A stretch of DNA of 64,000 nucleotides, taken from a virus. Location of the stretch: positions 1 through 64,000 of the IMG/VR virus record IMGVR_UViG_3300027714_000001; one strand, written 5' to 3'. Of the stretch, positions 24,778 through 57,590 are shown in pieces. The notes below the pieces were generated by a model. It was not told the DNA's origin. It saw nothing but the letters and a program-made list of their open reading frames with translations, and ran no database searches. The position numbers and the translations under genes are program-made. Position 1 is the first letter of the stretch, and each line of letters starts with the position of its first letter.

Positions 24778-24854
24778 TTTGTTTTTCCTTTTAGTTAATT
24801 TGAGAATCTATTATAAGCTAATTTGATACTTTGGTCAAGATGTTTTTTAATTTA

Positions 24855-25490
24855 TTATATGGGTTGCTCTTTGCTACAAAACTCGTCAGTAGGGAATTCG
24901 TGAACAACATAATTTCCTAGGTCTCTTGGCATAAAATTTAAATCTTCGTCACGACACAGCTTTATTATTTTTTCAACATGTTCTTTTGTAGATACATCAG
25001 GGTTAGTATTTATAGTAATTACTCCTGACTCACCCTTAAAGGCATTATCAAATCTAATAGAACTCTTTTTAGATAGTCCGCTAGGAGAGTAGTTTAAAGA
25101 CACACAACATTCTGAAAGACAACTAGCTTGATACTTTAATAAATAATTTCTTAAGTCTATTTGGTAAGGGGGACGTATAAATATAAAGTCAATGCTGTGC
25201 TTTAGTTTGGGAATAAATACTTCTATACGCTTAGACATCCAAGGTAACTTGTAGTAAGGGTTACGAGGGCCGAGGTCCGAGGGAGGTATAAAGTCTATTT
25301 TAGAACCTTCTAGGCCTATCTTAGTTAAAAACTCTTTAAACCCACAAGTAGTAATTTTAGATGTTGTGTAAATATCTATATCGTTGTAGTTGCCTCGATT
25401 TAGTATTAGTTTACGTGCGTAAGATCCTCCTATAACAAACTGCTCTGGAAATGTATCTCTGAGAGATTGTAGTAATTTTTCTACTATCAT
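24855..25490 (-). CDS. Pol-beta-superfamily nucleotidyltransferase-like protein
   Basis: VIGGSYAR...NDIDIY signature as in CCA-adding/poly(A) polymerase head domains. Confidence 0.55.
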   Translation of the reverse strand: MIVEKLLQSLRDTFPEQFVIGGSYARKLILNRGNYNDIDIYTTSKITTCGFKEFLTKIGLEGSKIDFIPPSDLGPRNPYYKLPWMSKRIEVFIPKLKHSIDFIFIRPPYQIDLRNYLLKYQASCLSECCVSLNYSPSGLSKKSSIRFDNAFKGESGVITINTNPDVSTKEHVEKIIKLCRDEDLNFMPRDLGNYVVHEFPTDEFCSKEQPI

Positions 25491-25756
25491 TTGGACACCA
25501 TTAAACTTTTCATTAGGTCAGGAAAGGTCATTGAGCCTTTAACTAATACTTTTCTTAATTCTTTCTCATCCCAACAGTCTTGGGGGCAGTCTATTTCTAG
25601 TTCGTACCCAAATTCTTTTATTACAGGTCCGCCTACCTCTACTCTGCTTAGGACTCCGTATACTGCTATTACTTTACAAGTGCCGTTACTTTCTGGAAAC
25701 TCTTTACTTACTAGCTGGACTCTTTCGCCTTTTTCATACAGGGGATGATTACTCAT
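25487..25756 (-). CDS. Hypothetical protein
   Basis: ORF overlapping neighbours. Confidence 0.6.
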   Translation of the reverse strand: MSNHPLYEKGERVQLVSKEFPESNGTCKVIAVYGVLSRVEVGGPVIKEFGYELEIDCPQDCWDEKELRKVLVKGSMTFPDLMKSLMVSK

Positions 25757-26427
25757 TGCATTGCCTTCTTTTTCTTGTTAGCTTCTACTAGAGTTTTGTT
25801 TACTTCGAAAGCAATTTCTTCGTTAGTAAGAGATGAACCTAGCAATTTAGATAAGTCTACACCTAGTTTTTCTATGTGAGACATGCTACCCAGTTCTGAG
25901 ACAGCTTGATAAGCGTACTCCATAGTGCCGTCTTTCCAGACACGAATACGGTAAGCGTTTTTGAATTTAGTTTTAACTTGAGCAATGCAACCATACTTAG
26001 CTGCCCAGACATACTGGCCGTCTGCAAAGCTATCTGCAATACATTCGTCAGGTAAAGCTGGAGGGCTTAGTGGATTAATTTTGTGATGCGTACGTAGCAT
26101 TGCACCATTTTTGTAAAGGTGATATTTGATTGTATCTGTGCTGCGGTAGAAAGACTCTGACAGCTCAGATAAAGAAGAACCAGAAAGATAGTCTGAAATT
26201 ATACCTACAAGCTCGTCATTGAGCAAAGGCAACTTACGCTTTTTTGCTCTGACTTCTTTGTCGATACGCTTTCGATTTAGGAAATCTTCTATTAGAGTCT
26301 CCATAGTACGGTTAGCAGAAACACCAATTATATCACAAGCGCCTTTCTTAGTGCCACCATCTTCTAGCCAATCTATAGCTCTGATAAATTGATCTTCTGT
26401 TATATCGTAAGTTTTTCGTCTAGCCAT
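25753..26427 (-). CDS. D2: T5 D2-like protein
   Basis: TKKGACDIIG and YLSG.SLSELS..FYRS helix-turn-helix-like segments; synteny. Confidence 0.8.
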   Translation of the reverse strand: MARRKTYDITEDQFIRAIDWLEDGGTKKGACDIIGVSANRTMETLIEDFLNRKRIDKEVRAKKRKLPLLNDELVGIISDYLSGSSLSELSESFYRSTDTIKYHLYKNGAMLRTHHKINPLSPPALPDECIADSFADGQYVWAAKYGCIAQVKTKFKNAYRIRVWKDGTMEYAYQAVSELGSMSHIEKLGVDLSKLLGSSLTNEEIAFEVNKTLVEANKKKKAMQ

Positions 26428-26495
26428 AATTTATTTGCCTTTTCGTTAATTTCTAAAACTATTATACGCAATTATTAGCTATTAGTCAAATGAAT

Positions 26496-26630
26496 TTAAA
26501 AATCATAATCACTAAGGCATCCTTCACATAGCAACTGATAGGCATGTTGTGGAATTTCATCCACTAACACTACGTTATCTATTTCTGTTAATTCTTCACA
26601 TTCTGTTTCGCACCAACTACATGTACTCAT
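26496..26630 (-). CDS. 44-aa zinc-finger microprotein
   Basis: Manual translation MSTCSWC...LLCEGC; ATGA overlap with upstream gene. Confidence 0.6.
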   Translation of the reverse strand: MSTCSWCETECEELTEIDNVVLVDEIPQHAYQLLCEGCLSDYDF

Positions 26631-26755
26631 ATGCTACTTCCCATTGAATGTAGTTCTACGCACTCTTTACAAAATAAAGATATTTCGTTTTCTACGAAAG
26701 AGTCATGTAAGGTAGTTACGTATACCTCTTTGTCGCAATATTCGCAACTACTCAT
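26627..26755 (-). CDS. 42-aa zinc-finger microprotein
   Basis: Manual translation MSSCEYC...FCKEC; ATGA overlaps on both sides. Confidence 0.6.
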   Translation of the reverse strand: MSSCEYCDKEVYVTTLHDSFVENEISLFCKECVELHSMGSSI

Positions 26756-27195
26756 ATCTGATTTCCCATTAGTTTGTCATTTAACTTTTCTAGTTTTTTC
26801 ATGTACTTAGTTTGAGCATTTAGCTCTGTAAGCAATATTTGAGCTGCCTGCAAGGTTAGATGGTAATTCTCTGCTAATTCATCATAAGAACTAAATCTTT
26901 CTGTAGATATAGGAGATACGTTATTTAACCATTTCTCTACACCCTCTTTAGAAAGTCTGTCAGGACTAGCTTCTTCTCTTAGTGTTCGTGGGTCTATTGC
27001 CATTTTTACTGTTCCTGGGTAGGTTAATATTGGGTTTTGTAAGAAGGGGGTGCTTTCTATAATAGGAATGCCCAAAAACTTTTGTAGTTTGTTTCTAGAC
27101 ATTCCTTTATATTTAACTTCAAATTTTGCTGTTAACTTAGCTAGGGCTTCCTCTGGAGTTTCTTTTTCTGATTTATTAAAGCTACTATACATCAA
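26752..27195 (-). CDS. Hypothetical protein
   Basis: ORF in operon. Confidence 0.6.
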   Translation of the reverse strand: MMYSSFNKSEKETPEEALAKLTAKFEVKYKGMSRNKLQKFLGIPIIESTPFLQNPILTYPGTVKMAIDPRTLREEASPDRLSKEGVEKWLNNVSPISTERFSSYDELAENYHLTLQAAQILLTELNAQTKYMKKLEKLNDKLMGNQI

Positions 27196-27436
27196 TATCT
27201 CTCTTTAAGCAAATAATTTTTTTCTTAAAATTAGCCACGTACTTCTCAAAGTTTGGTGGCAGTTGTTTTAGTTTTTGTACTAGATCAAAGAAGTCATGGT
27301 GTTGTGCCACAAACTCTGGAAGTACGCGACATACGGTAGTATATGTATCTTTGCCAGGTTTTACTTTAGTTGGCTTTTTCTTGTAAATACTATTATCAAA
27401 CTTCTTAGGAATCTCTCTCTTGGGAAACGGTTTCAT
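27185..27436 (-). CDS. Basic hypothetical protein downstream of obp
   Basis: ORF abutting obp stop. Confidence 0.6.
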   Translation of the reverse strand: MKPFPKREIPKKFDNSIYKKKPTKVKPGKDTYTTVCRVLPEFVAQHHDFFDLVQKLKQLPPNFEKYVANFKKKIICLKRDIDV

Positions 27437-30187
27437 TTATAACTCCTGTATTGGCTCTTGGTTAGGATTAAACTCTTTTGGTAATTCTACGCCTACTGTT
27501 TGCTCGCAATATTTTCTATACCACGAAATCAAAGAAATACTGTCTTTGCCTACTCCGCAACGCTTTAGAACTTGCTTTGCACGCTTTAGTCCACTAGAGT
27601 CCCTGTGTATGCCGTGTATAGACTCACCTGTCGCAAGATAGAATCTATGTCCTTTGGCGCGGAGAGCGAACATTAGAGCTTTTGGATCGGCAGCGAGTAC
27701 TTGCTCCCCGAAGTCTCTGTAGATTTTGTGGAAGAATTCTGCCTTCTCGTTAGGTTTCTCTTTGATAAATCTTTCTGCGTCTTCCCATGAAGGCTCACCC
27801 TCTATGTCATAATAAAACGTAAGCAATTGCTTAGCTTCATAAGCATCATTGTGGCGAACAAGGTTGATGTTTGATCTTGCACCTAGTATTGCGGTAACTC
27901 TTTCGATAAGATAGTTTTCTCTGTCCGTCTTGTCAATAGGGCTTAGGTAAGGAGTGTCCATAACTTGTATTTTTGCTCCTGCCTGTACTAGATAATAGTT
28001 GAATGTTGCGATATAAGTTTTATACTCGCGTTCTCTACGAGCAGCGTATGCTTTCCTAGCACCTATAGTAAATCCTTTGTCGACAGTTACGTCAGCATAG
28101 CCTGTAGAGTATACTTTCATATCTCTGAAATAGTAGTGTATTTCTTTAGGGTCCCGTTCTCGCATCATAGCTTGGTACCGCATATTAGGTGTGTGGTTCT
28201 CTGTATTAGTCAGCACAAAAACTGTGTCAAAGTAATTAAAGTCTACACCGTTAGTAATACTAGGACTACAAAATAAAGCGTCTATCTCTTGACGTCTAAG
28301 TGCTGCGGACGTATGGTTGACTATCTCGTCTACGTCTTTGTCTAGCTTAGAAGATGAATGTATAACCTTGATGTTTTTATCTGGTAACACTCTGTCAAAA
28401 GCGATTAGATACTCGTTAAGAGCTTTAGGAGAAGAATCCGAAACAAGCAAACATTTGTCTCCTATTTCTAGGTGGCCTTGTAGCGCACCCCACAGAGAGC
28501 TTTCCTTAGTATGTTTAAATACAGGTATGTTTTTTAGGTTTTGTCGCTTGTGATCTATTCTGCAAAGCTTTCTTGAACCTTCCATAAGATTAATATACTG
28601 TGCTACTGTTTCTTCGGATATGTCTCCATCACTAATGACTACTCTGTCAGTGTTTTGCAATAGCTCACTTAAAACTTCTGCTATCTGAATTTTGGTATCC
28701 TCTTTTATAATAGAGGCGAACAATAAATTATTCATTAACGAATCTGCTTCGTCGATAAACAAAAAGTCAAAAGAGTTGGTTAAGTGCTTAATCTTTAGCA
28801 ACGAGTGCAACGTACCTGACAATCGGTCTACTTCTCCAGATGCAAAGTCTAAGCAACCTGTAGGCGAGCGGAAATCTCTCGCAGGGCTGAAACGAGCTGT
28901 GTTAGACTCTACTAGTGCAGAGGTATCTGTGATTGCTAGGAACTTTCCGGGGATCTGTCCTGTTTTAAGCCAACGCTCAACATTGTAAGTTTTACCGCTA
29001 CCTAGTGTAGCTTTTAAGAATGTAACTGTATTCTTAGGAATATGCTTTTGAATGTCTAGGTATTTCTCGTGCGTGCCACTACTTATTTTATCTAGCTTTA
29101 GACCTAAGCATTCGGTAGGAAGCTCACGAACAGAACATGCTTTGATATTATTAATAGCACTTAGCTTACCTTGGCGGATGTACTCTTGAGCACTCCCAGG
29201 TCTTACACCTTCTATGATAGGAACTAATTCTTTTTCCAATTCTTTAAGTGAGTATTGACTTTGTATAGCACTGTGATATAAAGATATTACTGCGTTACGA
29301 AAACCAGAAGAATCTACTTTCCACGCACGTAAACTTTCTATCTTGTTATAGATAGTTAGGTTTTTATCTATGCCGCCTGTAATACTATCTAAGTAAAAGC
29401 TTCTTTCTTCCATAGTGGTAGCTATTGGCTTTACATAGGCAGCAGCAAACTCTGGAACTCTTGAGTTACTTCCGAAATGATAATACATTCTTTTACCTTT
29501 TAACGGGTCTACTGTACTATCTTCGAAAACAGGATATGAGGTATAGTGTGCTTGTATGTCGTGGTATAGAGCGGGGTCTATAAGATTTGTTGCAATTTCG
29601 AACTTTGCCTTGTAAGAAGAATTAATAATCGAAAATAAATTTCTAAGTTGCGCTTGCTCGATTTTGTGCGAATTTTGTAACCATAAGTGTAATTTTATAC
29701 AGTCAGTGAGTCCAGCACTAGAAGAGCCCTGAGCAATAAAGCCCATGTCGTCAGGAAAAATATTAGGGTTGCATTTATGCAAAATATTACATACATAGTG
29801 GCCGTGAGCAGCTATGTCAATATTGCTTAAATTAGGTGGGACTTTTAATTCGTCAATGTCCATACAAATAATATGGCTTTTGACGTTCTCTACTAGCTTG
29901 GCTTTACGTACAACGGTATCATTTATTTTAGCGTGCGTATATTTATGGCGAATAACTAGTGTCTTAGGGTTGTTACCTAAAGCTTCCAGAATAGGGCATA
30001 GCTCCAACAGTGTAGTTGGATTATGGAATTTGCCTAATCTAAACTTTCTAGGAAAGTTTGCAGGAGTCTTATTTAGGTTTTTATCTAAACGCTTAGTTAG
30101 CCACGTATTTTTGGCAAAAACTCTAAAATAGTTCCCGTCCTTGGAAACATCGTTGTAGTCACAAGCGTGTAATACGCTAAATGTCAT
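27437..30187 (-). CDS. obp: Replication origin-binding protein (primase-like N-domain + SF2 helicase)
   Basis: CMDID and KLHLW in N-domain; ATLGSGKT, FIDEAD, SPSITNGVDF helicase motifs; T5 synteny. Confidence 0.9.
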   Translation of the reverse strand: MTFSVLHACDYNDVSKDGNYFRVFAKNTWLTKRLDKNLNKTPANFPRKFRLGKFHNPTTLLELCPILEALGNNPKTLVIRHKYTHAKINDTVVRKAKLVENVKSHIICMDIDELKVPPNLSNIDIAAHGHYVCNILHKCNPNIFPDDMGFIAQGSSSAGLTDCIKLHLWLQNSHKIEQAQLRNLFSIINSSYKAKFEIATNLIDPALYHDIQAHYTSYPVFEDSTVDPLKGKRMYYHFGSNSRVPEFAAAYVKPIATTMEERSFYLDSITGGIDKNLTIYNKIESLRAWKVDSSGFRNAVISLYHSAIQSQYSLKELEKELVPIIEGVRPGSAQEYIRQGKLSAINNIKACSVRELPTECLGLKLDKISSGTHEKYLDIQKHIPKNTVTFLKATLGSGKTYNVERWLKTGQIPGKFLAITDTSALVESNTARFSPARDFRSPTGCLDFASGEVDRLSGTLHSLLKIKHLTNSFDFLFIDEADSLMNNLLFASIIKEDTKIQIAEVLSELLQNTDRVVISDGDISEETVAQYINLMEGSRKLCRIDHKRQNLKNIPVFKHTKESSLWGALQGHLEIGDKCLLVSDSSPKALNEYLIAFDRVLPDKNIKVIHSSSKLDKDVDEIVNHTSAALRRQEIDALFCSPSITNGVDFNYFDTVFVLTNTENHTPNMRYQAMMRERDPKEIHYYFRDMKVYSTGYADVTVDKGFTIGARKAYAARREREYKTYIATFNYYLVQAGAKIQVMDTPYLSPIDKTDRENYLIERVTAILGARSNINLVRHNDAYEAKQLLTFYYDIEGEPSWEDAERFIKEKPNEKAEFFHKIYRDFGEQVLAADPKALMFALRAKGHRFYLATGESIHGIHRDSSGLKRAKQVLKRCGVGKDSISLISWYRKYCEQTVGVELPKEFNPNQEPIQEL

Positions 30188-31332
30188 TTATTTAGTATGT
30201 CCATTATAACGCATGCAATAAACTCGAAATCGCTGACAGTACAACCTTTTGTAGTCATTGCGGCTGTACCTATGCGGATGCCACTAGTTTCTACAAAGCT
30301 TTTCTGGTCGTTAGGTATACTGTTTTTATTTACTGTTATTGCATTGGCTTCTAGGAGGTCAGCAGCTTCTCTACCAGAATGCTTAGTATTACTAAGGTCT
30401 AGTAAGATAATATGGCTGTCTGTGCCGTCAGTTTGCACTTTGTATCCGTTAGCCATAAATTGATGAGCCATAGCTTTAGCATTTAATACTACCTGATTAG
30501 CGTACTTCTCAAAGTCAGGGTTTAACGCTTCTGTAAAGCATTGAGCTTTAGCAGCTATTGTGTGCATTAGTGGTCCGCCTTGTGTGCCTGGAAATATAGC
30601 ACTGTTTATGGCTTTAGAATATTTCTCGTCATTCCACAAAATTATTCCGCCTCTAGGCCCACGCAAAGTTTTATGCGTAGTAGATGTAATAACATCTGCG
30701 TATCCTACAGGGCTATCATACACTTTACCTGCAATTAGTCCAGAGTAATGAGACATGTCGGCAACTAAGATAGCACCTACTTCGAAAGCAATTTGCTTAA
30801 ACGCAGACCAATCTATTGTTCTAGGATATGCACTAGCACCTGCAACAATTACTTTTGGCTTATGCTTCAAAGCAGCACTGTATACATCTAGCATGTCTAT
30901 ACGTCCAGACTCCTCATCTACTCCGTAAGTAGCACAATCGTACGTTTTACCTGACATATTAACAGGACTTCCATGCGATAAATGCCCACCTGCGGATAAA
31001 CTCATACCTAAGAGTTTATCACCTGGCTTCATAAAAGCTTGGTATACTGCGGAGTTTGCATTCGCTCCAGAATGGGGTTGAACATTAGCATAGTTACAAT
31101 TAAATAGCTTACATGCTAACTCTTGTGCGTATGTTTCTATAGCGTCCATGTTTTCACAACCGTTGTAATAACGTTTGCTTGGGTAGCCTTCTGCGTATTT
31201 GTTTGTAAATACACTACCTGATAGTTTTCGTACAGCCTTACTTGCAAAATTCTCACTAGCTATAAGCTCTATTGAAGAATCTTGTCTGTCTTTCTCTAAT
31301 TTTAATATTGTTTTAATGTATGGATGTATCAT
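30184..31332 (-). CDS. glyA: Serine hydroxymethyltransferase
   Basis: LIASEN, NKYAEGYP, GGHLSHG, TTHKTLRGPRGG, FPGTQGGP, SGIRIGT. Confidence 0.97.
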   Translation of the reverse strand: MIHPYIKTILKLEKDRQDSSIELIASENFASKAVRKLSGSVFTNKYAEGYPSKRYYNGCENMDAIETYAQELACKLFNCNYANVQPHSGANANSAVYQAFMKPGDKLLGMSLSAGGHLSHGSPVNMSGKTYDCATYGVDEESGRIDMLDVYSAALKHKPKVIVAGASAYPRTIDWSAFKQIAFEVGAILVADMSHYSGLIAGKVYDSPVGYADVITSTTHKTLRGPRGGIILWNDEKYSKAINSAIFPGTQGGPLMHTIAAKAQCFTEALNPDFEKYANQVVLNAKAMAHQFMANGYKVQTDGTDSHIILLDLSNTKHSGREAADLLEANAITVNKNSIPNDQKSFVETSGIRIGTAAMTTKGCTVSDFEFIACVIMDILNK

Positions 31333-31339
31333 TGTCTGC

Positions 31340-31957
31340 CTTTTTAAGTATGTTATTGTATCTTAATAAATTCTTTCTCTTAAGAACTACTTTTGCCACT
31401 AATGGGCAATTTCACATCGGTATAGTTGTTAGTATCACATACAGTATCTCGTACGTCACTAACCCTAACCCCGCAGGTTACTGTGTCAAACAGGGGATAT
31501 TTATTAAGTAGTTAAAGTTTATACCTACAGTGTAAAACATTTTTATTTTAGCTATAATAGCAATTTTGTATTCTTTACCCTCAGCCCCAAGCCAGTGTAC
31601 CCTGTCTAAAAAATTTATACGACGCAGTTCTCAGTCCATATAAAGCGATTTTTGGGATCGACCGTGCCTTCAAAGTACTTGCGTACCAACCTCCTGTCAT
31701 ATCCTCCGTTACAGAAGACAACCGATTAGTGCCCCACTAGCGGGCATTAGGTTTCTATAGTAATTTAGTAGTCGGGGATCAATCCTGTACCGTTTCCTAT
31801 AGGGTGAATTTGCTAATTCACGGGGTGTTACAGTTGTGGCCTACTCTACGTATTTATCCCACATACCGAAAAAGGTTGATATGTAGTTATACTGGATTTG
31901 CGCTCACGAAAATATAGTTAAAAAATGAATTACAAGATATTAATAATCTCGAACTAA
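31340..31957 (-). ncRNA. Long structured leader / candidate ncRNA (or origin region) upstream of glyA-obp
   Basis: ~620 nt without a credible ORF, downstream of a consensus promoter; several hairpins and long-range complementary blocks. Confidence 0.45.
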
Positions 31958-31963
31958 GGACAT

Positions 31964-31992
31964 ATTATACTTTATATGGTTGTTTTTGTCAA
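31964..31992 (-). promoter_or_regulatory. Consensus sigma70 promoter
   Basis: TTGACA-17-TATAAT on minus strand. Confidence 0.85.
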
Positions 31993-32001
31993 GATGTTTT
32001 T

Positions 32002-32592
32002 TTATTTTTTGGAACTGCAACCCGCTTTTTTGACTATACTAATATACAAGAGTATATCTTCAATAGCTTGTTCAACGGTAAAGTTATTGAATACATCAGC
32101 AGTTTTAATGCCGTCAATCTGTATGTAATCTCTGGAGTCTAGCATAAAGTTAGTCTCTCCACGATGCAGGTGCAATATAATAATGTTTTCTTTACCGAAT
32201 CTATTAGCAAGTACATTTACTTCGTCAGGAAAGCCTCCGTCACTGTATACACAATCTTTATTACTATGTATGTGTCTAGCACAGTCTACGGAAGAAAGCT
32301 GCCCAAAGTAGTCTTTACCAAAATGGGGCTTACACATAACCTCTGATATGTGTATAAGAAAACCTCTAGGACTAAATCCTAATAGTGCTTTATTGGGTAT
32401 TTCTTTTATAGACCTGTCATTGTATATTGTAAAGTACTGATCTCTAGTTAATCCTGTCATAGCTAAAGCTATATTATGTAGTGCTGTTTTAAACTCTAAA
32501 TGAGCACCCCCCAATTCTTTAACCAGCTTTAGGGCTAAAGTATCTTTACCAGACCCTGGAGGCCCGTTTAGTATGATTATTTTATTTTTCAT
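32002..32592 (-). CDS. Deoxynucleoside monophosphate kinase
   Basis: NGPPGSGKDT P-loop; SDGGFPDE; DSRDY. Confidence 0.8.
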   Translation of the reverse strand: MKNKIIILNGPPGSGKDTLALKLVKELGGAHLEFKTALHNIALAMTGLTRDQYFTIYNDRSIKEIPNKALLGFSPRGFLIHISEVMCKPHFGKDYFGQLSSVDCARHIHSNKDCVYSDGGFPDEVNVLANRFGKENIIILHLHRGETNFMLDSRDYIQIDGIKTADVFNNFTVEQAIEDILLYISIVKKAGCSSKK

Positions 32593-32791
32593 TTAATAGT
32601 CTCTTTTCTAGTGCAAGGTTCTCTAGATCTGAAAGCTTTAACATTCTGACTCGTATTTCTAATTGGTCTTGTAGTTCTTGGTTTTGCTCTTTAAGTGCTA
32701 AAATGTCTTCCCATAAATTATATATAACTTCATCCGTATCTGCCAATAGTTTAACATATTGTAATGTTTTTTCATCTGAGTATAGATTCAT
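32582..32791 (-). CDS. Small coiled-coil hypothetical protein
   Basis: ATG 32791 with AGGA SD. Confidence 0.5.
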   Translation of the reverse strand: MNLYSDEKTLQYVKLLADTDEVIYNLWEDILALKEQNQELQDQLEIRVRMLKLSDLENLALEKRLLNEK

Positions 32792-33134
32792 AAAAATTTC
32801 CTGTTTGTGATTAATTAAACATAGTATACTAAAAAACATACTATATGTCAACATGTTTTTATACTTATTTAGTCGGTATCACCTACCTAATAAATTAAAA
32901 CCGAGCTTGACAAAAGGCGAAAAATAAGATACAGTATATAACTAGAGGAGGAATACTTATGAATGAAATTGTACATGCACTAAACAGAGACTACGGTGGA
33001 GACTGGTTCTATAATATAGAAACTAAACTGTACGAAGACTTTGAGTCCGATAACATCTTTATGCCCGAAGATGTATCCTTGTAGCACGGAAAGCTACTTA
33101 CTATAATTAATCTACCAGCAAGGAATACCCATAC

Positions 33135-49770: not shown

Positions 49771-49814
49771 AAAACTTCTTGACTAAATACTAGAATCCCC
49801 GTATAATAGATTCT

Positions 49815-50957
49815 AGAAAGTTAAGAAAAGAGATTAATACGAAGCAAGATTTACTCACTTGTTTTTATAAAGGGCGGTTTTATAGTATTGTAAACGTCTA
49901 AAGGAAGAAAGGGTACAGAGTTCTTCACTATAGTTTTAATTTCTTTTCTTAATTTTCTATGCACACTAGCTTCGGCCACATAGTGTAAGAAAGTTAAAAC
50001 CCTTTCTGTCCAATAATCAACGTAAGTCCTGACCCAGGCATTGTAGGGAGAGAGGTGCAATTCCTACCATATCCACGAGTAACGGTCAGTTTACTGAACT
50101 AACTCTAGGGATAAGGTAGATTAAAGCAGGGCGGTTTAGCGTCCTTAAAATAACCCACTGAAAGGTGGAAAAGGTAACTTGTCAGGTTGCCGCTGTGTAG
50201 GCTCCGGTTTACAATAGTTTATCTAGACAAGCACAAGTTTCATTCCGTAAGAATGTCTTTGAGTCTAAAATCAGAGATAGCATTAAAAGGAACGAGCGTA
50301 GGTACTCCCGACAGGCGAGTATAGCGGCTAATAACCAAAAAGCCAAAATTAGACATGGGGACATATTTAAACCTGCAATCCACTCTAGTACGAAATATGC
50401 AAAAACTAATGTGTAGTTGTTTCAGTCCGAGTAGTCATATAAGGGCAGGCAGCAGTAACAAAGAATTGTTTGTAAATAGACAATCCTTAAAATACGGTGG
50501 AGTAGCGGGAACGCGAAAGACAATGTGGTGTGGAATATTTTGTAAGTCAAAAGCTTACGAACTCCTGACGGAACACATCGCAGACAACTAAATAACGCTA
50601 TTGGTTAGCATTTGACTCTTAATCAAACTATCGGGTTCAATTCCCCATTAATCAAAAGTTTCCGTCGGTACGTTATCGAAAGATTGCTAATCCCTGACAA
50701 TAATGAATCAGGGCATATAAAGGTCGAAAGCCTGCATATGTTTACAACGTAGATAAATTTAGTCTCTTAGCGGAGAGTAACAGCCCTAAAGGTTGGAAGG
50801 AATCGAAATGTAGAGTAGATACGTATGACAGTCTTATATGCTTACAAGACTTTAAAGACAAGCGCAATCGGTGGGATACTAGGGAGACCTAGTGGATACG
50901 CAGCTAACTCATATGGCTCGCAAAAGACCTGCTACTAGAAGCCTTAATCTCAGGCTG
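49815..50957 (+). ncRNA. ~1.1-kb large structured RNA, GOLLD-like candidate with embedded tRNA-Lys(CTT)-like element
   Basis: Promoter at 49779; no credible ORF; many hairpins; tRNA arms at ~50597-50647; 3' end AGCCTTAATCTCAGGCT. Confidence 0.55.
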
Positions 50958-51084
50958 ATATAAATTAACTCTTTAGAGAGTATTTATGGGGACACTTTAG
51001 CTTTACCTAAACGCGAATAAGGTATAAATTATAGTAAAGAAGTTGAAGACTAATGCATTAGTTGGATGGACTAAAATATTATAA

Positions 51085-51318
51085 TTGCTAGAGTCCCACC
51101 ATAAGTATTTTAAGAGCAAAAAAAAATTGTCAGCTACCCCTAGTTGGTCTGAGAGTACTGCAATAGGAGAGTTTTACTTTAATTGTCCTATAGGTTATCA
51201 TGTAGATCATATAGTGCATTTACAAGGGCTGATAGTTTGTGGCTTGCATGTGTTAGATAACTTACAGTATCTAACAGAAGAAGAAAATTTAACAAAAAGT
51301 AACGCCTTTATCGTATAG
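51085..51318 (+). pseudogene. Decayed HNH endonuclease
   Basis: YHVDHIV.LQG..VCGLHVLDNLQYL..EEN..KSN; N-terminus missing. Confidence 0.7.
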
Positions 51319-51381
51319 TCCGGTCAATTACGCTGGTTTTGTAATCCAGTTACGTAGGTTCGAATCCTGCTAGAGGCACCA
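51304..51381 (+). tRNA. tRNA-Thr(TGT)
   Basis: Cloverleaf, CCA. Confidence 0.9.
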
Positions 51382-57515: not shown

Positions 57516-57590
57516 ACTCCTGTAGCTTAACGGCAAAGCGCAGGCTTCTAAACCCTAGAAATGGGAGTTCAACTCTCCCCAGGAGTACCA
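57516..57590 (+). tRNA. tRNA with CTA anticodon (amber-suppressor-like)
   Basis: Perfect acceptor/D/T arms; loop TT CTA AA at canonical spacing; anticodon stem only 3 bp. Confidence 0.65.

What the first reader, a model, noticed from the sequence alone, without database searches (positions are those of the whole stretch)
49815..50957. ~1.1-kb GOLLD-like giant RNA with an embedded tRNA-Lys(CUU)-like domain
Seen: promoter TTGACT-17-TATAAT at 49779, then 1.1 kb of hairpin-rich sequence (e.g. CCACT GAA AGGTGG, CACT..AGTG-type stems). At ~50597-50647 it has D, anticodon (TTTGA CTCTTAA TCAAA) and T arms without an acceptor stem. It ends ...ACTAGG GAGA CCTAGT GGATAC...AGCCTTAATCTCAGGCT. Known: GOLLD RNAs are ~800 nt, lie near phage tRNAs and can contain a tRNA. 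The 3' end matches my recollection of the GOLLD 3' domain, which is unverified. Inference: a long GOLLD variant or a new class in a T5-like phage.
Basis: partly seen in the sequence, partly recalled or inferred. Interest (0 to 1): 0.85.

Follow-up and report, generated by a model that had tools for sequence, protein, structure and literature searches.

The report
GOLLD RNA in a marine T5-like phage
This is a genuine member of the known GOLLD family of giant phage RNAs, sitting among the tRNA genes of a marine T5-like phage; it carries a worn-down tRNA copy in its linker and an unusually long leader, so it is a new example of a known RNA, not a new class.

Summary
The Rfam GOLLD model (RF02032) matches window 50523-50956 end to end at 175.2 bits (cut-off 150).

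The 400 nt upstream (50123-50522) align block by block with the 5' domains of 12 other phage GOLLDs. They share 45 covarying pairs, 91.6% paired against 35-43% in slid controls. The canonical GOLLD is therefore about 830 nt (about 50123/50129-50956), not 1.1 kb.

The other roughly 310 nt (49815-50122) are a lineage-specific leader behind a near-consensus sigma-70 promoter. The leader starts with a 23-bp RNA stem.

A 994-nt metatranscriptome contig covers 49966-50959 exactly. Thirteen marine RNA runs from seven studies hold part of the stretch.

The tRNA-Lys(CUU)-like element lies in the GOLLD linker. There, 11 of 119 sampled IMG/VR GOLLDs carry real tRNAs scoring 40-61 bits, two of them tRNA-Lys(CUU). 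Here it scores 19.8 bits (cut-off 29), ARAGORN does not call it, and its acceptor stem is gone. It is most likely a decaying embedded tRNA.

The host phage is a 106-kb, terminally repeated, distant T5 relative. Verdict: new member of a known kind, of modest interest.

The parts
49779..49807 (+). Sigma-70-type promoter, TTGACT-17-TATAAT; the predicted transcription start is about 49814-49816
   Evidence: It matches 11 of 12 consensus positions. It is one of 18 promoters with at least 11 of 12 matches in the window, all co-oriented with the local genes. That it is used is inferred, not shown.
49815..49959 (+). Leader domain 1: a long stem of 23 contiguous pairs, two of them G-U, closing three small hairpins. 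It is lineage-specific and not part of the GOLLD consensus
   Evidence: The inverted repeat 49814-49840 / 49933-49959 has 27-nt arms, 89% complementary. The + strand fold has z -3.16 for 49815-50060. The two G-U pairs are C-A mismatches on the minus strand, so the stem is better as + strand RNA. The one RNA run from this phage whose contig reaches furthest upstream does not cover it; that is a weak hint only.
49960..50122 (+). Leader domain 2: local hairpins with no counterpart in other GOLLD loci. It includes a possible relic promoter (TTTACT at 50091, TAAGGT at 50113)
   Evidence: The RNA contig in run X8 includes it from 49966. The fold is only weakly better than shuffles, z -1.68. blastn finds no homologue among 121 GOLLD loci. 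In relatives, promoters lie 10-75 nt upstream of the 5'-domain start.
50123..50522 (+). GOLLD 5' domain. It begins with the GGGCGGTTTAGCGTCC block
   Evidence: It aligns with the 5' domains of 12 GOLLDs. There are 45 pairs in 10 helices, 91.6% paired against 35-43% in slid controls. The covariation score is 0.715 against 0.10-0.18, and 0 of 500 shuffles reach it.
50523..50582 (+). First hairpin of the Rfam GOLLD model (model positions 1-62)
   Evidence: cmscan alignment. It is 75% identical to Vibrio phage D51 across 50486-50574.
50583..50652 (+). GOLLD variable linker holding the tRNA-Lys(CUU)-like element (core 50595-50650)
   Evidence: It falls in the unstructured linker columns of RF02032. 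The tRNA model gives 19.8 bits, below the cut-off of 29. ARAGORN makes no call. It aligns position for position with real linker tRNAs of other GOLLDs.
50653..50956 (+). GOLLD conserved 3' core, including the long-range helix 50657-50667 / 50818-50827 and the terminal TAATCTCA hairpin
   Evidence: RF02032 alignment. A relative about 95% identical, seen in RNA runs X13 and X17, shows two compensatory double changes in hairpin 50877-50894 and diverges immediately after 50955.
49966..50959 (+). Extent of the single 994-nt metatranscriptome contig, identical to the window
   Evidence: Run X8, record 19, depth 22.6, with no loose ends. Three further runs of the same study hold 0.70-0.71 of the sampled words, which fits the same extent.

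Best explanation
The locus encodes a GOLLD RNA (Rfam RF02032) of a marine T5-like phage, placed inside the phage's tRNA gene region.

Transcription most likely starts at the near-consensus promoter at 49779-49807 (inferred). The RNA then has four parts:
- a roughly 310-nt lineage-specific leader, whose first 145 nt form a long 23-bp stem;
- the canonical GOLLD 5' domain (50123-50522);
- a hairpin and a 70-nt linker;
- the conserved 3' core, ending at 50956.

The abundant RNA species seen in metatranscriptomes runs from about 49966 to 50959. This suggests that the long-stem part of the leader is removed, for example by a double-strand-specific RNase (inferred).

By homology with the solved GOLLD env-38 structure, the RNA should assemble without protein into a closed 14-mer cage. 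The 5' domains would form the caps, the 3' domains the ring, and the linker would point into the interior (inferred from PMC12286853).

The linker is a tRNA-derived element. It is homologous in position to the intact tRNAs that a subfamily of GOLLDs carries there. Here the acceptor stem is lost, the D stem is shortened and the T stem is weakened. It is therefore most likely neither excised by RNase P and RNase Z nor aminoacylated. It persists as a relic or as a structured filler of the linker.

The biological role of GOLLD remains unknown in the literature. I commit to 'self-assembling RNA cage acting during lytic growth in connection with the phage's tRNA and translation programme'.
For: - Family: RF02032 gives 175.2 bits against a cut-off of 150, over the full model 1-416, E 1.6e-47.
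- 5' domain: covariation over 45 pairs in 13 sequences, 91.6% paired against 35-43% slid, and 0 of 500 shuffles reach the observed score.
- Context: 20 tRNA genes on the same strand flank the locus. Small ORFs inside it have no family match.
- RNA evidence: 13 RNA runs from 7 marine studies hold part of the stretch. One 994-nt RNA contig equals window 49966-50959. A relative about 95% identical carries A50881G with T50890C and G50882A with C50889T, both compensatory in one hairpin. Its sequence departs from the window right after 50955.
- Linker tRNA: 11 Rfam-confirmed GOLLDs carry linker tRNAs scoring 40-61 bits at the same place, two of them tRNA-Lys(CUU). In a tree built from the 315 nt after the linker, all tRNA-bearing GOLLDs and the window fall in one clade of 31 rows (SH-aLRT 96).
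- Promoter: 11 of 12 matches, one of 18 co-oriented promoters.
- Cage and interior linker: PMC12286853.
Against: - No transcript ends are mapped. The RNA evidence consists of assembled contigs, which cannot show starts, ends or strand, and RNA libraries can contain DNA.
- The use of the promoter and the removal of the leader stem are inferences.
- Cage formation is extrapolated from one solved homologue. The long leader could interfere with it.
- The tRNA-like element keeps a perfect anticodon stem-loop and a canonical T loop, which may mean it is still under selection and not decaying.
- Folding energies of the linker are no better than shuffles (z about -0.8).
- No close relative was found that would allow a covariation test on the leader or the linker.
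Confidence: 0.85

Rival explanations
1. The tRNA-like element is a functional module, not a relic. It would be an acceptor-less mimic of tRNA-Lys(CUU), with an anticodon arm and a T-loop/D-loop elbow, displayed in 14 copies inside or at the opening of the GOLLD cage. It would bind or titrate a tRNA-recognising factor such as an anticodon nuclease, a modification enzyme or the ribosome.
For: - The anticodon stem is a perfect 5 bp with a 7-nt loop that keeps U33 and A37. The T loop is canonical and the D loop keeps GG.
- The anticodon stem differs from that of the L033 and L046 tRNA-Lys(CUU) by paired changes.
- Lys anticodons are the commonest among linker tRNAs: 3 of 12, plus this one.
- Host tRNA-Lys is a known target of an antiphage nuclease, and phage T5 counters it with its own tRNA-Lys (PMC11464382).
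- The GOLLD literature proposes that linker tRNAs are caged (PMC12286853).
Against: - Its nearest GOLLD relatives (Vibrio phages D51 and D69, and L032) have linkers with no tRNA at all, so the element is dispensable within the clade.
- The T stem has a C-C mismatch, which becomes C-U in the 95% relative, and the D stem has only 3 bp.
- The fold is no more stable than shuffles.
- A competing fold without a D arm is at least as stable.
- There is no evidence for any binding partner.
Confidence: 0.2
2. The 1.1-kb stretch holds two independent RNAs: a short leader RNA of about 145 nt from the 49779 promoter, closed by the 23-bp stem, and a separate GOLLD of about 830-990 nt made from its own weak promoter or by processing of a longer tRNA-region transcript.
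For: - The leader stem domain is self-contained.
- The RNA contig begins 7 nt after the stem ends.
- A promoter-like relic, TTTACT-16-TAAGGT, lies at 50091-50118, where relatives have their promoters.
Against: - The RNA contig starts at 49966, well upstream of the relic promoter, so at least part of the leader is contiguous with GOLLD.
- The relic matches only 7 of 12 consensus positions.
- There is no terminator-like site between 49959 and 50123.
- No RNA contig covers 49815-49959.
Confidence: 0.15
3. The region is protein-coding, with small phage ORFs like those annotated in the Vibrio phage records, and the RNA structure signals are incidental.
For: - ORFs of 30-78 aa exist on both strands.
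- GenBank records of Vibrio phages D51 and D69 annotate small hypothetical CDSs over the homologous stretch.
Against: - The ORFs at 49851-50060 (minus strand) and 50355-50591 (plus strand) match no PHROG family.
- The stretch matches a covariance model above its curated cut-off.
- Substitutions among relatives are compensatory in helices.
- The annotated CDSs in D51 and D69 lie on both strands over the same RNA.
Confidence: 0.02

Closest known systems
GOLLD RNA, Rfam RF02032 (for example env-38, the 833-nt marine metagenome GOLLD whose cryo-EM structure is a 14-mer cage; PMC12286853)
   Same: - The conserved 3' region matches the full model above the cut-off.
- The 5' domain is less conserved but covaries with other GOLLDs.
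- A variable linker follows the first hairpin of the Rfam model.
- It is phage-encoded, lies in a tRNA island and comes from a marine source.
- The canonical length, about 830 nt, compares with 833 nt for env-38.
   Different: - About 310 nt of extra leader follow the promoter, of which at least 155 nt are contiguous with GOLLD in an RNA contig.
- The linker is 70 nt against 42 nt in env-38, and it is tRNA-derived.
- Assembly into a cage has not been tested here.
GOLLDs with an intact tRNA in the linker (IMG/VR loci L033 and L046 with tRNA-Lys CUU; also L044, L037, L039, L043, L064, L093, L110, L119)
   Same: - The insertion point is the same.
- The window falls in the same clade of 3' domains.
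- L033 and L046 have the same anticodon (CUU), the same anticodon-loop sequence and a near-identical T loop.
   Different: - Those tRNAs score 40-61 bits and ARAGORN calls them. The window's element scores 19.8 bits and is not called.
- Only 3 of 5 positions can still pair where the relatives have their GCAAA/TTTGC acceptor pairing.
- The D stem has 3 bp and the T stem has a mismatch.
GOLLDs of Vibrio phages D51 (118 kb, T5-like) and D69 (187 kb), GenBank OZ196642 and OZ195729
   Same: - They are the nearest 3' domains, at 66-68% identity.
- They share 5'-domain blocks.
- They lie in tRNA regions.
- D51 also carries the T5-type origin-binding protein.
   Different: - Their linkers hold no tRNA-like element.
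- The leaders are not homologous.
- In GenBank these loci are annotated as small hypothetical proteins, not as RNA.
ROOL RNA (the other phage-borne cage-forming RNA)
   Same: It is a large ornate phage RNA found near tRNA genes, with a disordered interior linker.
   Different: Its sequence and fold are unrelated, and the window has no ROOL match.

Membership tests
GOLLD (RF02032) | Covariance-model score at or above Rfam's gathering cut-off (150 bits) over the conserved 3' region | tested here: met
   The score is 175.2 bits, E 1.6e-47, over model positions 1-416 without truncation, at 50523-50956 on the + strand.
GOLLD (RF02032) | A less conserved but structured 5' domain of about 400 nt upstream of the 3' region | tested here: met
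   Window 50123-50522 aligns with 12 GOLLD 5' domains. There are 45 pairs, 37 of them with changes on both sides. Cells are 91.6% paired against 35-43% in slid controls, and 0 of 500 shuffles reach the observed score.
GOLLD (RF02032) | A variable linker between the domains, sometimes holding a tRNA | tested here: met
   The 70-nt linker at 50583-50652 falls in the unstructured model columns. Eleven sampled GOLLDs hold tRNAs at the same place. This feature is described in PMC12286853.
GOLLD (RF02032) | Encoded by phages or prophages, usually next to tRNA genes | tested here: met
   The source is a 106-kb virus record with terminal repeats. Twenty tRNA genes lie between 42881 and 59223 on the same strand.
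GOLLD (RF02032) | Expressed as a discrete RNA of more than 800 nt | tested here: inconclusive
   A 994-nt contig in an RNA library covers 49966-50959, and 13 RNA runs hold part of the stretch. Contigs show neither ends nor strand, and DNA carry-over is not excluded.
GOLLD (RF02032) | Self-assembly into a homo-14-mer cage | not testable with these tools
   This is known only for env-38 (PMC12286853). It needs in vitro transcription followed by cryo-EM or mass photometry.
tRNA (RF00005), for the linker element | Covariance-model score at or above the cut-off (29 bits) and a call by a tRNA finder | tested here: not met
   The score is 19.8 bits and ARAGORN makes no call. The reported E-value of 0.52 is multiplied over 4227 families. 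For the tRNA family alone it would be about 1e-4, by my division, so tRNA ancestry is credible.
tRNA (RF00005), for the linker element | A 7-bp acceptor stem | tested here: not met
   Only 3 of 5 positions can pair where relatives have GCAAA/TTTGC. An alternative closing stem exists, but it uses up the D arm.
tRNA (RF00005), for the linker element | An anticodon arm of 5 bp with a 7-nt loop containing U33, and a T arm with the TTCRANY loop | tested here: met
   The anticodon arm is TTTGA-CTCTTAA-TCAAA. The T loop is TTCAATT, on a stem of 3 G-C pairs and one A-U pair with one C-C mismatch between them.
ROOL | A match to the Rfam ROOL model | tested here: not met
   Neither the gathering-threshold scan nor the scan at E up to 10 gives a match.

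The most novel reading that the evidence does not exclude
The acceptor-less tRNA-Lys(CUU) mimic is kept on purpose. Because RNase P and RNase Z cannot excise it, it would stay tethered inside the GOLLD cage in 14 copies. There it could act as a decoy or sponge for a host factor that recognises the tRNA-Lys anticodon arm, for example an antiphage anticodon nuclease of the kind that T5 counters with its own tRNA-Lys. The long leader, processed at its 23-bp stem, would time or control assembly. This would give GOLLD its first function.
Probability: 0.08. Interest if true: 0.75.

Novelty: new member of a known kind. Interest (0 to 1): 0.3.

Why it matters
GOLLD is one of the largest bacterial and phage RNAs with no known function, and it was recently shown to form an RNA-only cage. 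This locus adds five things:

- **A T5-like example.** It is a GOLLD in a complete T5-like marine phage genome. Three classical Tequintavirus genomes have none, while a T5-like vibriophage has one that is annotated as protein.
- **Environmental RNA evidence.** The RNA appears in metatranscriptome libraries from several independent marine studies.
- **A stage in linker evolution.** It is an intermediate between GOLLDs with an intact linker tRNA and GOLLDs with none. That bears on whether the caged tRNA is cargo or passenger.
- **A long leader.** The structured leader is unusually long and could be a handle for studying maturation.
- **An annotation fix.** The small 'hypothetical proteins' called over GOLLD loci in phage records are probably spurious.

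None of this changes what is known about the family.

Tried and rejected
- **Close relatives.** I searched for relatives that would allow covariation tests on the leader and the tRNA-like element. Three exact or degenerate DNA patterns found nothing in IMG/VR or the metagenome contigs. megablast of 20 kb of the window against GenBank phages found nothing. Relatives of the upstream ORF are unrelated prophage contigs at about 45% identity, and I did not examine them further.
- **Leader homology.** blastn of 49771-50122 against 121 GOLLD loci found nothing credible. Rfam at E up to 10 gave only noise, such as snoRNA models. Long leader stems are not a shared feature: D51 and L032 each have one unrelated inverted repeat upstream, and D69 has none.
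- **Coding potential.** The 69-aa ORF (minus strand) and the 78-aa ORF (plus strand) inside the RNA match no PHROG family.
- **Variants in the 5' domain.** I mapped the metatranscriptome variants of the 5' domain onto the consensus pairs. Nineteen of 22 sites fall outside the 45 consensus pairs and 3 lie in a highly diverged patch, so the result is uninformative.
- **Uncovered stretches.** Stretches without RNA contig cover (49815-49965 and 50960-51403 in run X8) cannot be read as absence of transcript.
- **Earlier notes.** The scan holds no earlier notes for this genome.
- **Papers not held.** The original GOLLD paper (Weinberg et al. 2009) and the Mycobacterium GOLLD paper are not in the library. 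Statements about them rest on citations in PMC12286853 and PMC7567579.
- **New class.** Rejected because the family model matches above its cut-off.

Full report
**1. The observation**

- The promoter TTGACT-17-TATAAT lies at 49779-49807 and matches 11 of 12 consensus positions.
- A scan of my own found 18 promoters in the window with at least 11 of 12 matches. All have 17-18-nt spacers and all point the same way as the local genes. A simple base-frequency estimate of mine gives about one such site by chance, so the set looks real.
- No ORF of 30 aa or more lies on the + strand between 49771 and 50186. The small ORFs elsewhere in the stretch match no phage protein family.

**2. Family**

Rfam's GOLLD model (RF02032, 416 positions) matches 50523-50956 on the + strand from first to last model position. 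The score is 175.2 bits against a curated cut-off of 150, E 1.6e-47 (repeated). No other Rfam family except tRNA reaches its cut-off in the window. ROOL does not appear even at E up to 10.

**3. Host genome**

- The window is part of an IMG/VR virus record of 106,179 bp with direct terminal repeats, rated complete.
- It encodes a family-A DNA polymerase, ribonucleotide reductase, an SbcC-like nuclease and a T5-type replication-origin-binding protein.
- The origin-binding protein is 35.7% identical over 99% of its length to those of Tequintavirus phages.
- Twenty tRNA genes lie on the + strand between 42881 and 59223, and GOLLD sits among them. 'T5-like' is justified, as a distant marine relative.
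- Three classical Tequintavirus genomes (Bf23, Shivani, SHSML-45) have no GOLLD match. Vibrio phages D51 and D69 each have one. D51 also has the T5-type origin-binding protein.
- In both Vibrio phage records the GOLLD stretch is annotated as small hypothetical proteins on both strands.

**4. Where the GOLLD begins**

The Rfam model covers only the conserved 3' region. A pattern built from the 3' end fetched 119 IMG/VR loci.
- In these loci, upstream tRNA genes end 860-1000 nt before the GOLLD 3' end, and downstream tRNAs begin 12-22 nt after it.
- Aligning the upstream regions of the window's nearest relatives shows that homology starts at the block GGGCGGTTTAGCGTCC (window 50129). This block is identical in L043 and L093. 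Homology then continues block by block to the Rfam start.
- In seven relatives a sigma-70-like promoter lies 10-75 nt upstream of that block.
- RNAalifold on 13 sequences gives 45 pairs in 10 helices, including long-range ones. Thirty-seven pairs have changes on both sides.
- Counted against controls, 91.6% of cells are paired against 34.6-42.8% when partners are slid. The covariation score is 0.715 against 0.10-0.18, and no shuffle of 500 reaches the observed values. The structure was derived from the same alignment, which inflates the contrast somewhat. The gap is nonetheless large.

The canonical GOLLD is thus about 50123/50129-50956, roughly 830 nt. The solved env-38 RNA is 833 nt (PMC12286853).

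**5. The leader**

Between the promoter and the GOLLD 5' domain lie about 310 nt that no other sampled GOLLD shares.
- The first 145 nt are closed by an inverted repeat, 49814-49840 with 49933-49959.
- On the + strand this gives 23 contiguous pairs, two of them G-U. On the minus strand those two become C-A mismatches. The stem is therefore better as + strand RNA.
- The remainder (49960-50122) folds into local hairpins that are only marginally better than shuffles.
- It contains TTTACT-16-TAAGGT at 50091-50118, at the place where relatives have their promoters. This may be a decayed promoter (my reading).

**6. RNA evidence**

- Thirteen RNA-seq runs from seven marine studies hold part of the stretch. 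Four runs of one study each hold 0.70-0.71 of the sampled words.
- Laying four runs shows one 994-nt contig in run X8 identical to window 49966-50959. Its depth is 22.6, against 2.8-8.1 for the patchy neighbouring contigs.
- Runs X13 and X17, from other studies, hold a relative about 95% identical. Its contigs end their match at 50955 and continue with unrelated sequence. Conservation therefore stops at the GOLLD 3' end.
- In the 3' region that relative differs at A50881G with T50890C and at G50882A with C50889T. These are two compensatory double changes in the hairpin 50877-50894.
- It also differs at A50545G, which turns an A-U pair into G-U. Its other differences lie at unpaired or loop positions (mapped on the alignment).
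- These are contig data. They show presence in RNA libraries and bridging across the linker. They do not show ends, strand or level. The 5' limit at 49966, 7 nt after the long stem, is a hint that the stem is removed from the mature RNA, and no more than that.

**7. The tRNA-like element**

It lies entirely in the linker columns of the GOLLD model. ARAGORN does not call it.
- The tRNA model gives 19.8 bits against a cut-off of 29. The E-value of 0.52 is multiplied over 4227 families, so for the tRNA family alone it is about 1e-4 by my division.
- Among the 119 IMG/VR loci, 12 carry a tRNA or tRNA-like element at the same place. Eleven of these are Rfam-confirmed GOLLDs (159-213 bits) whose linker tRNAs score 40-61 bits.
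- The anticodons are Lys CUU (twice), Lys UUU, Arg UCU (twice), Thr, Asn, Ser, an opal suppressor, and two with odd loops.
- Aligned to them, the window keeps the D loop with GG, a perfect anticodon arm with the same loop as the CUU tRNAs, and the T loop. It has only 3 of 5 possible pairs where the others have the GCAAA/TTTGC acceptor pairing, a 3-bp D stem, and a C-C mismatch in the T stem.
- A tree of the 315 nt after the linker puts all tRNA bearers and the window in one clade of 31 rows (SH-aLRT 96). The window sits next to D69, D51, L032 and L109 (support 86, weak). That group is sister to a clade in which 9 of 11 carry tRNAs.
- D51, D69 and L032 have linkers without any tRNA trace, and so do L104 and L118 inside the tRNA-rich clade.
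- The simplest history is one or a few captures of a tRNA into the linker, followed by repeated decay. The window is an intermediate stage.
- Two folds compete. The other has an AU/GU-rich closing stem and no D arm, which is the minimum-energy fold and the fold in the Rfam tRNA alignment. Neither is more stable than shuffles.

**8. How it most likely works**

Shown here:
- family membership;
- a conserved structure in both domains;
- presence in RNA libraries.

Inferred:
- transcription from the 49779 promoter;
- removal of the long-stem leader;
- assembly into a 14-mer cage with the linker inside, by homology with env-38 (PMC12286853);
- no excision of the tRNA-like element, because RNase P and RNase Z need an acceptor stem (established knowledge).

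The function of GOLLD is unknown in the literature. It accumulates during lysis and was dispensable in one Lactobacillus prophage (as cited in PMC7567579).

A speculative alternative is that the tethered anticodon-arm mimic of tRNA-Lys is a decoy for tRNA-targeting defence. The precedent is that T5 neutralises the PARIS nuclease with its own tRNA-Lys (PMC11464382). I give this less than 10%.

**9. Verdict**

This is a real, correctly recognised GOLLD RNA, and a new member of a known family. Three particulars are worth recording: the T5-like marine host phage, the degenerate linker tRNA and the long structured leader. Interest is modest.

Noticed in passing
window 57516-57590 (+): A tRNA with anticodon CTA, an amber suppressor that ARAGORN labels 'Pyl', scores 57.6 bits on the Rfam tRNA model. 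It sits among the phage tRNAs, although the long ORFs of the window read normally under code 11.
   Followed up: no
window 51085-51318 (+): A 77-aa ORF matches phrog_26577 (E 7e-12) and the C-terminal part of an endonuclease VII family. Its end overlaps the first 15 nt of tRNA-Thr (51304-51381). It may be a remnant of a homing endonuclease in the tRNA region.
   Followed up: partly
window 38815-62135 (+) and 24838-32851 (-): Eighteen near-consensus sigma-70 promoters (at least 11 of 12 matches, spacers of 17-18 nt) are all co-oriented with the local genes, as expected for T5-type early promoters.
   Followed up: partly
window 50545-50561 and 50601-50617: A 17-nt stretch, 82% complementary, links the loop and 3' arm of the first Rfam hairpin with the D-arm and anticodon 5' half of the tRNA-like element. 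It could allow an alternative pairing, or it could be chance.
   Followed up: no
L001 (Vibrio phage D51, OZ196642.1, 67607-68020) and L002 (Vibrio phage D69, OZ195729.1, 99273-99683): Both GenBank records have a GOLLD above the Rfam cut-off (177.7 and 186.2 bits). In both, the stretch is annotated as several small hypothetical proteins on both strands. blastn suggests about 290 Vibrio phage records share at least part of it.
   Followed up: partly
L033, L039, L046, L064, L093 (IMG/VR GOLLD linkers): Linker tRNAs with different anticodons share nearly the same 5' flank and acceptor half (GGTTCGCAAA). This suggests one ancestral embedded tRNA whose anticodon changed, or a constraint imposed by GOLLD. 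L093 has an 8-nt anticodon loop, L073 a 6-nt loop, and L043 an opal-suppressor anticodon.
   Followed up: partly
L043 8908-9279: A permuted or alpha-type tmRNA gene lies about 1.8 kb upstream of the GOLLD in this IMG/VR contig.
   Followed up: no
IMG/VR GOLLD loci: In many loci a tRNA gene starts 12-22 nt after the GOLLD 3' end, often tRNA-Met, Arg or Ala. RNase P cleavage of that tRNA could therefore define the GOLLD 3' end. The window lacks such a tRNA; its next one is 348 nt downstream.
   Followed up: no
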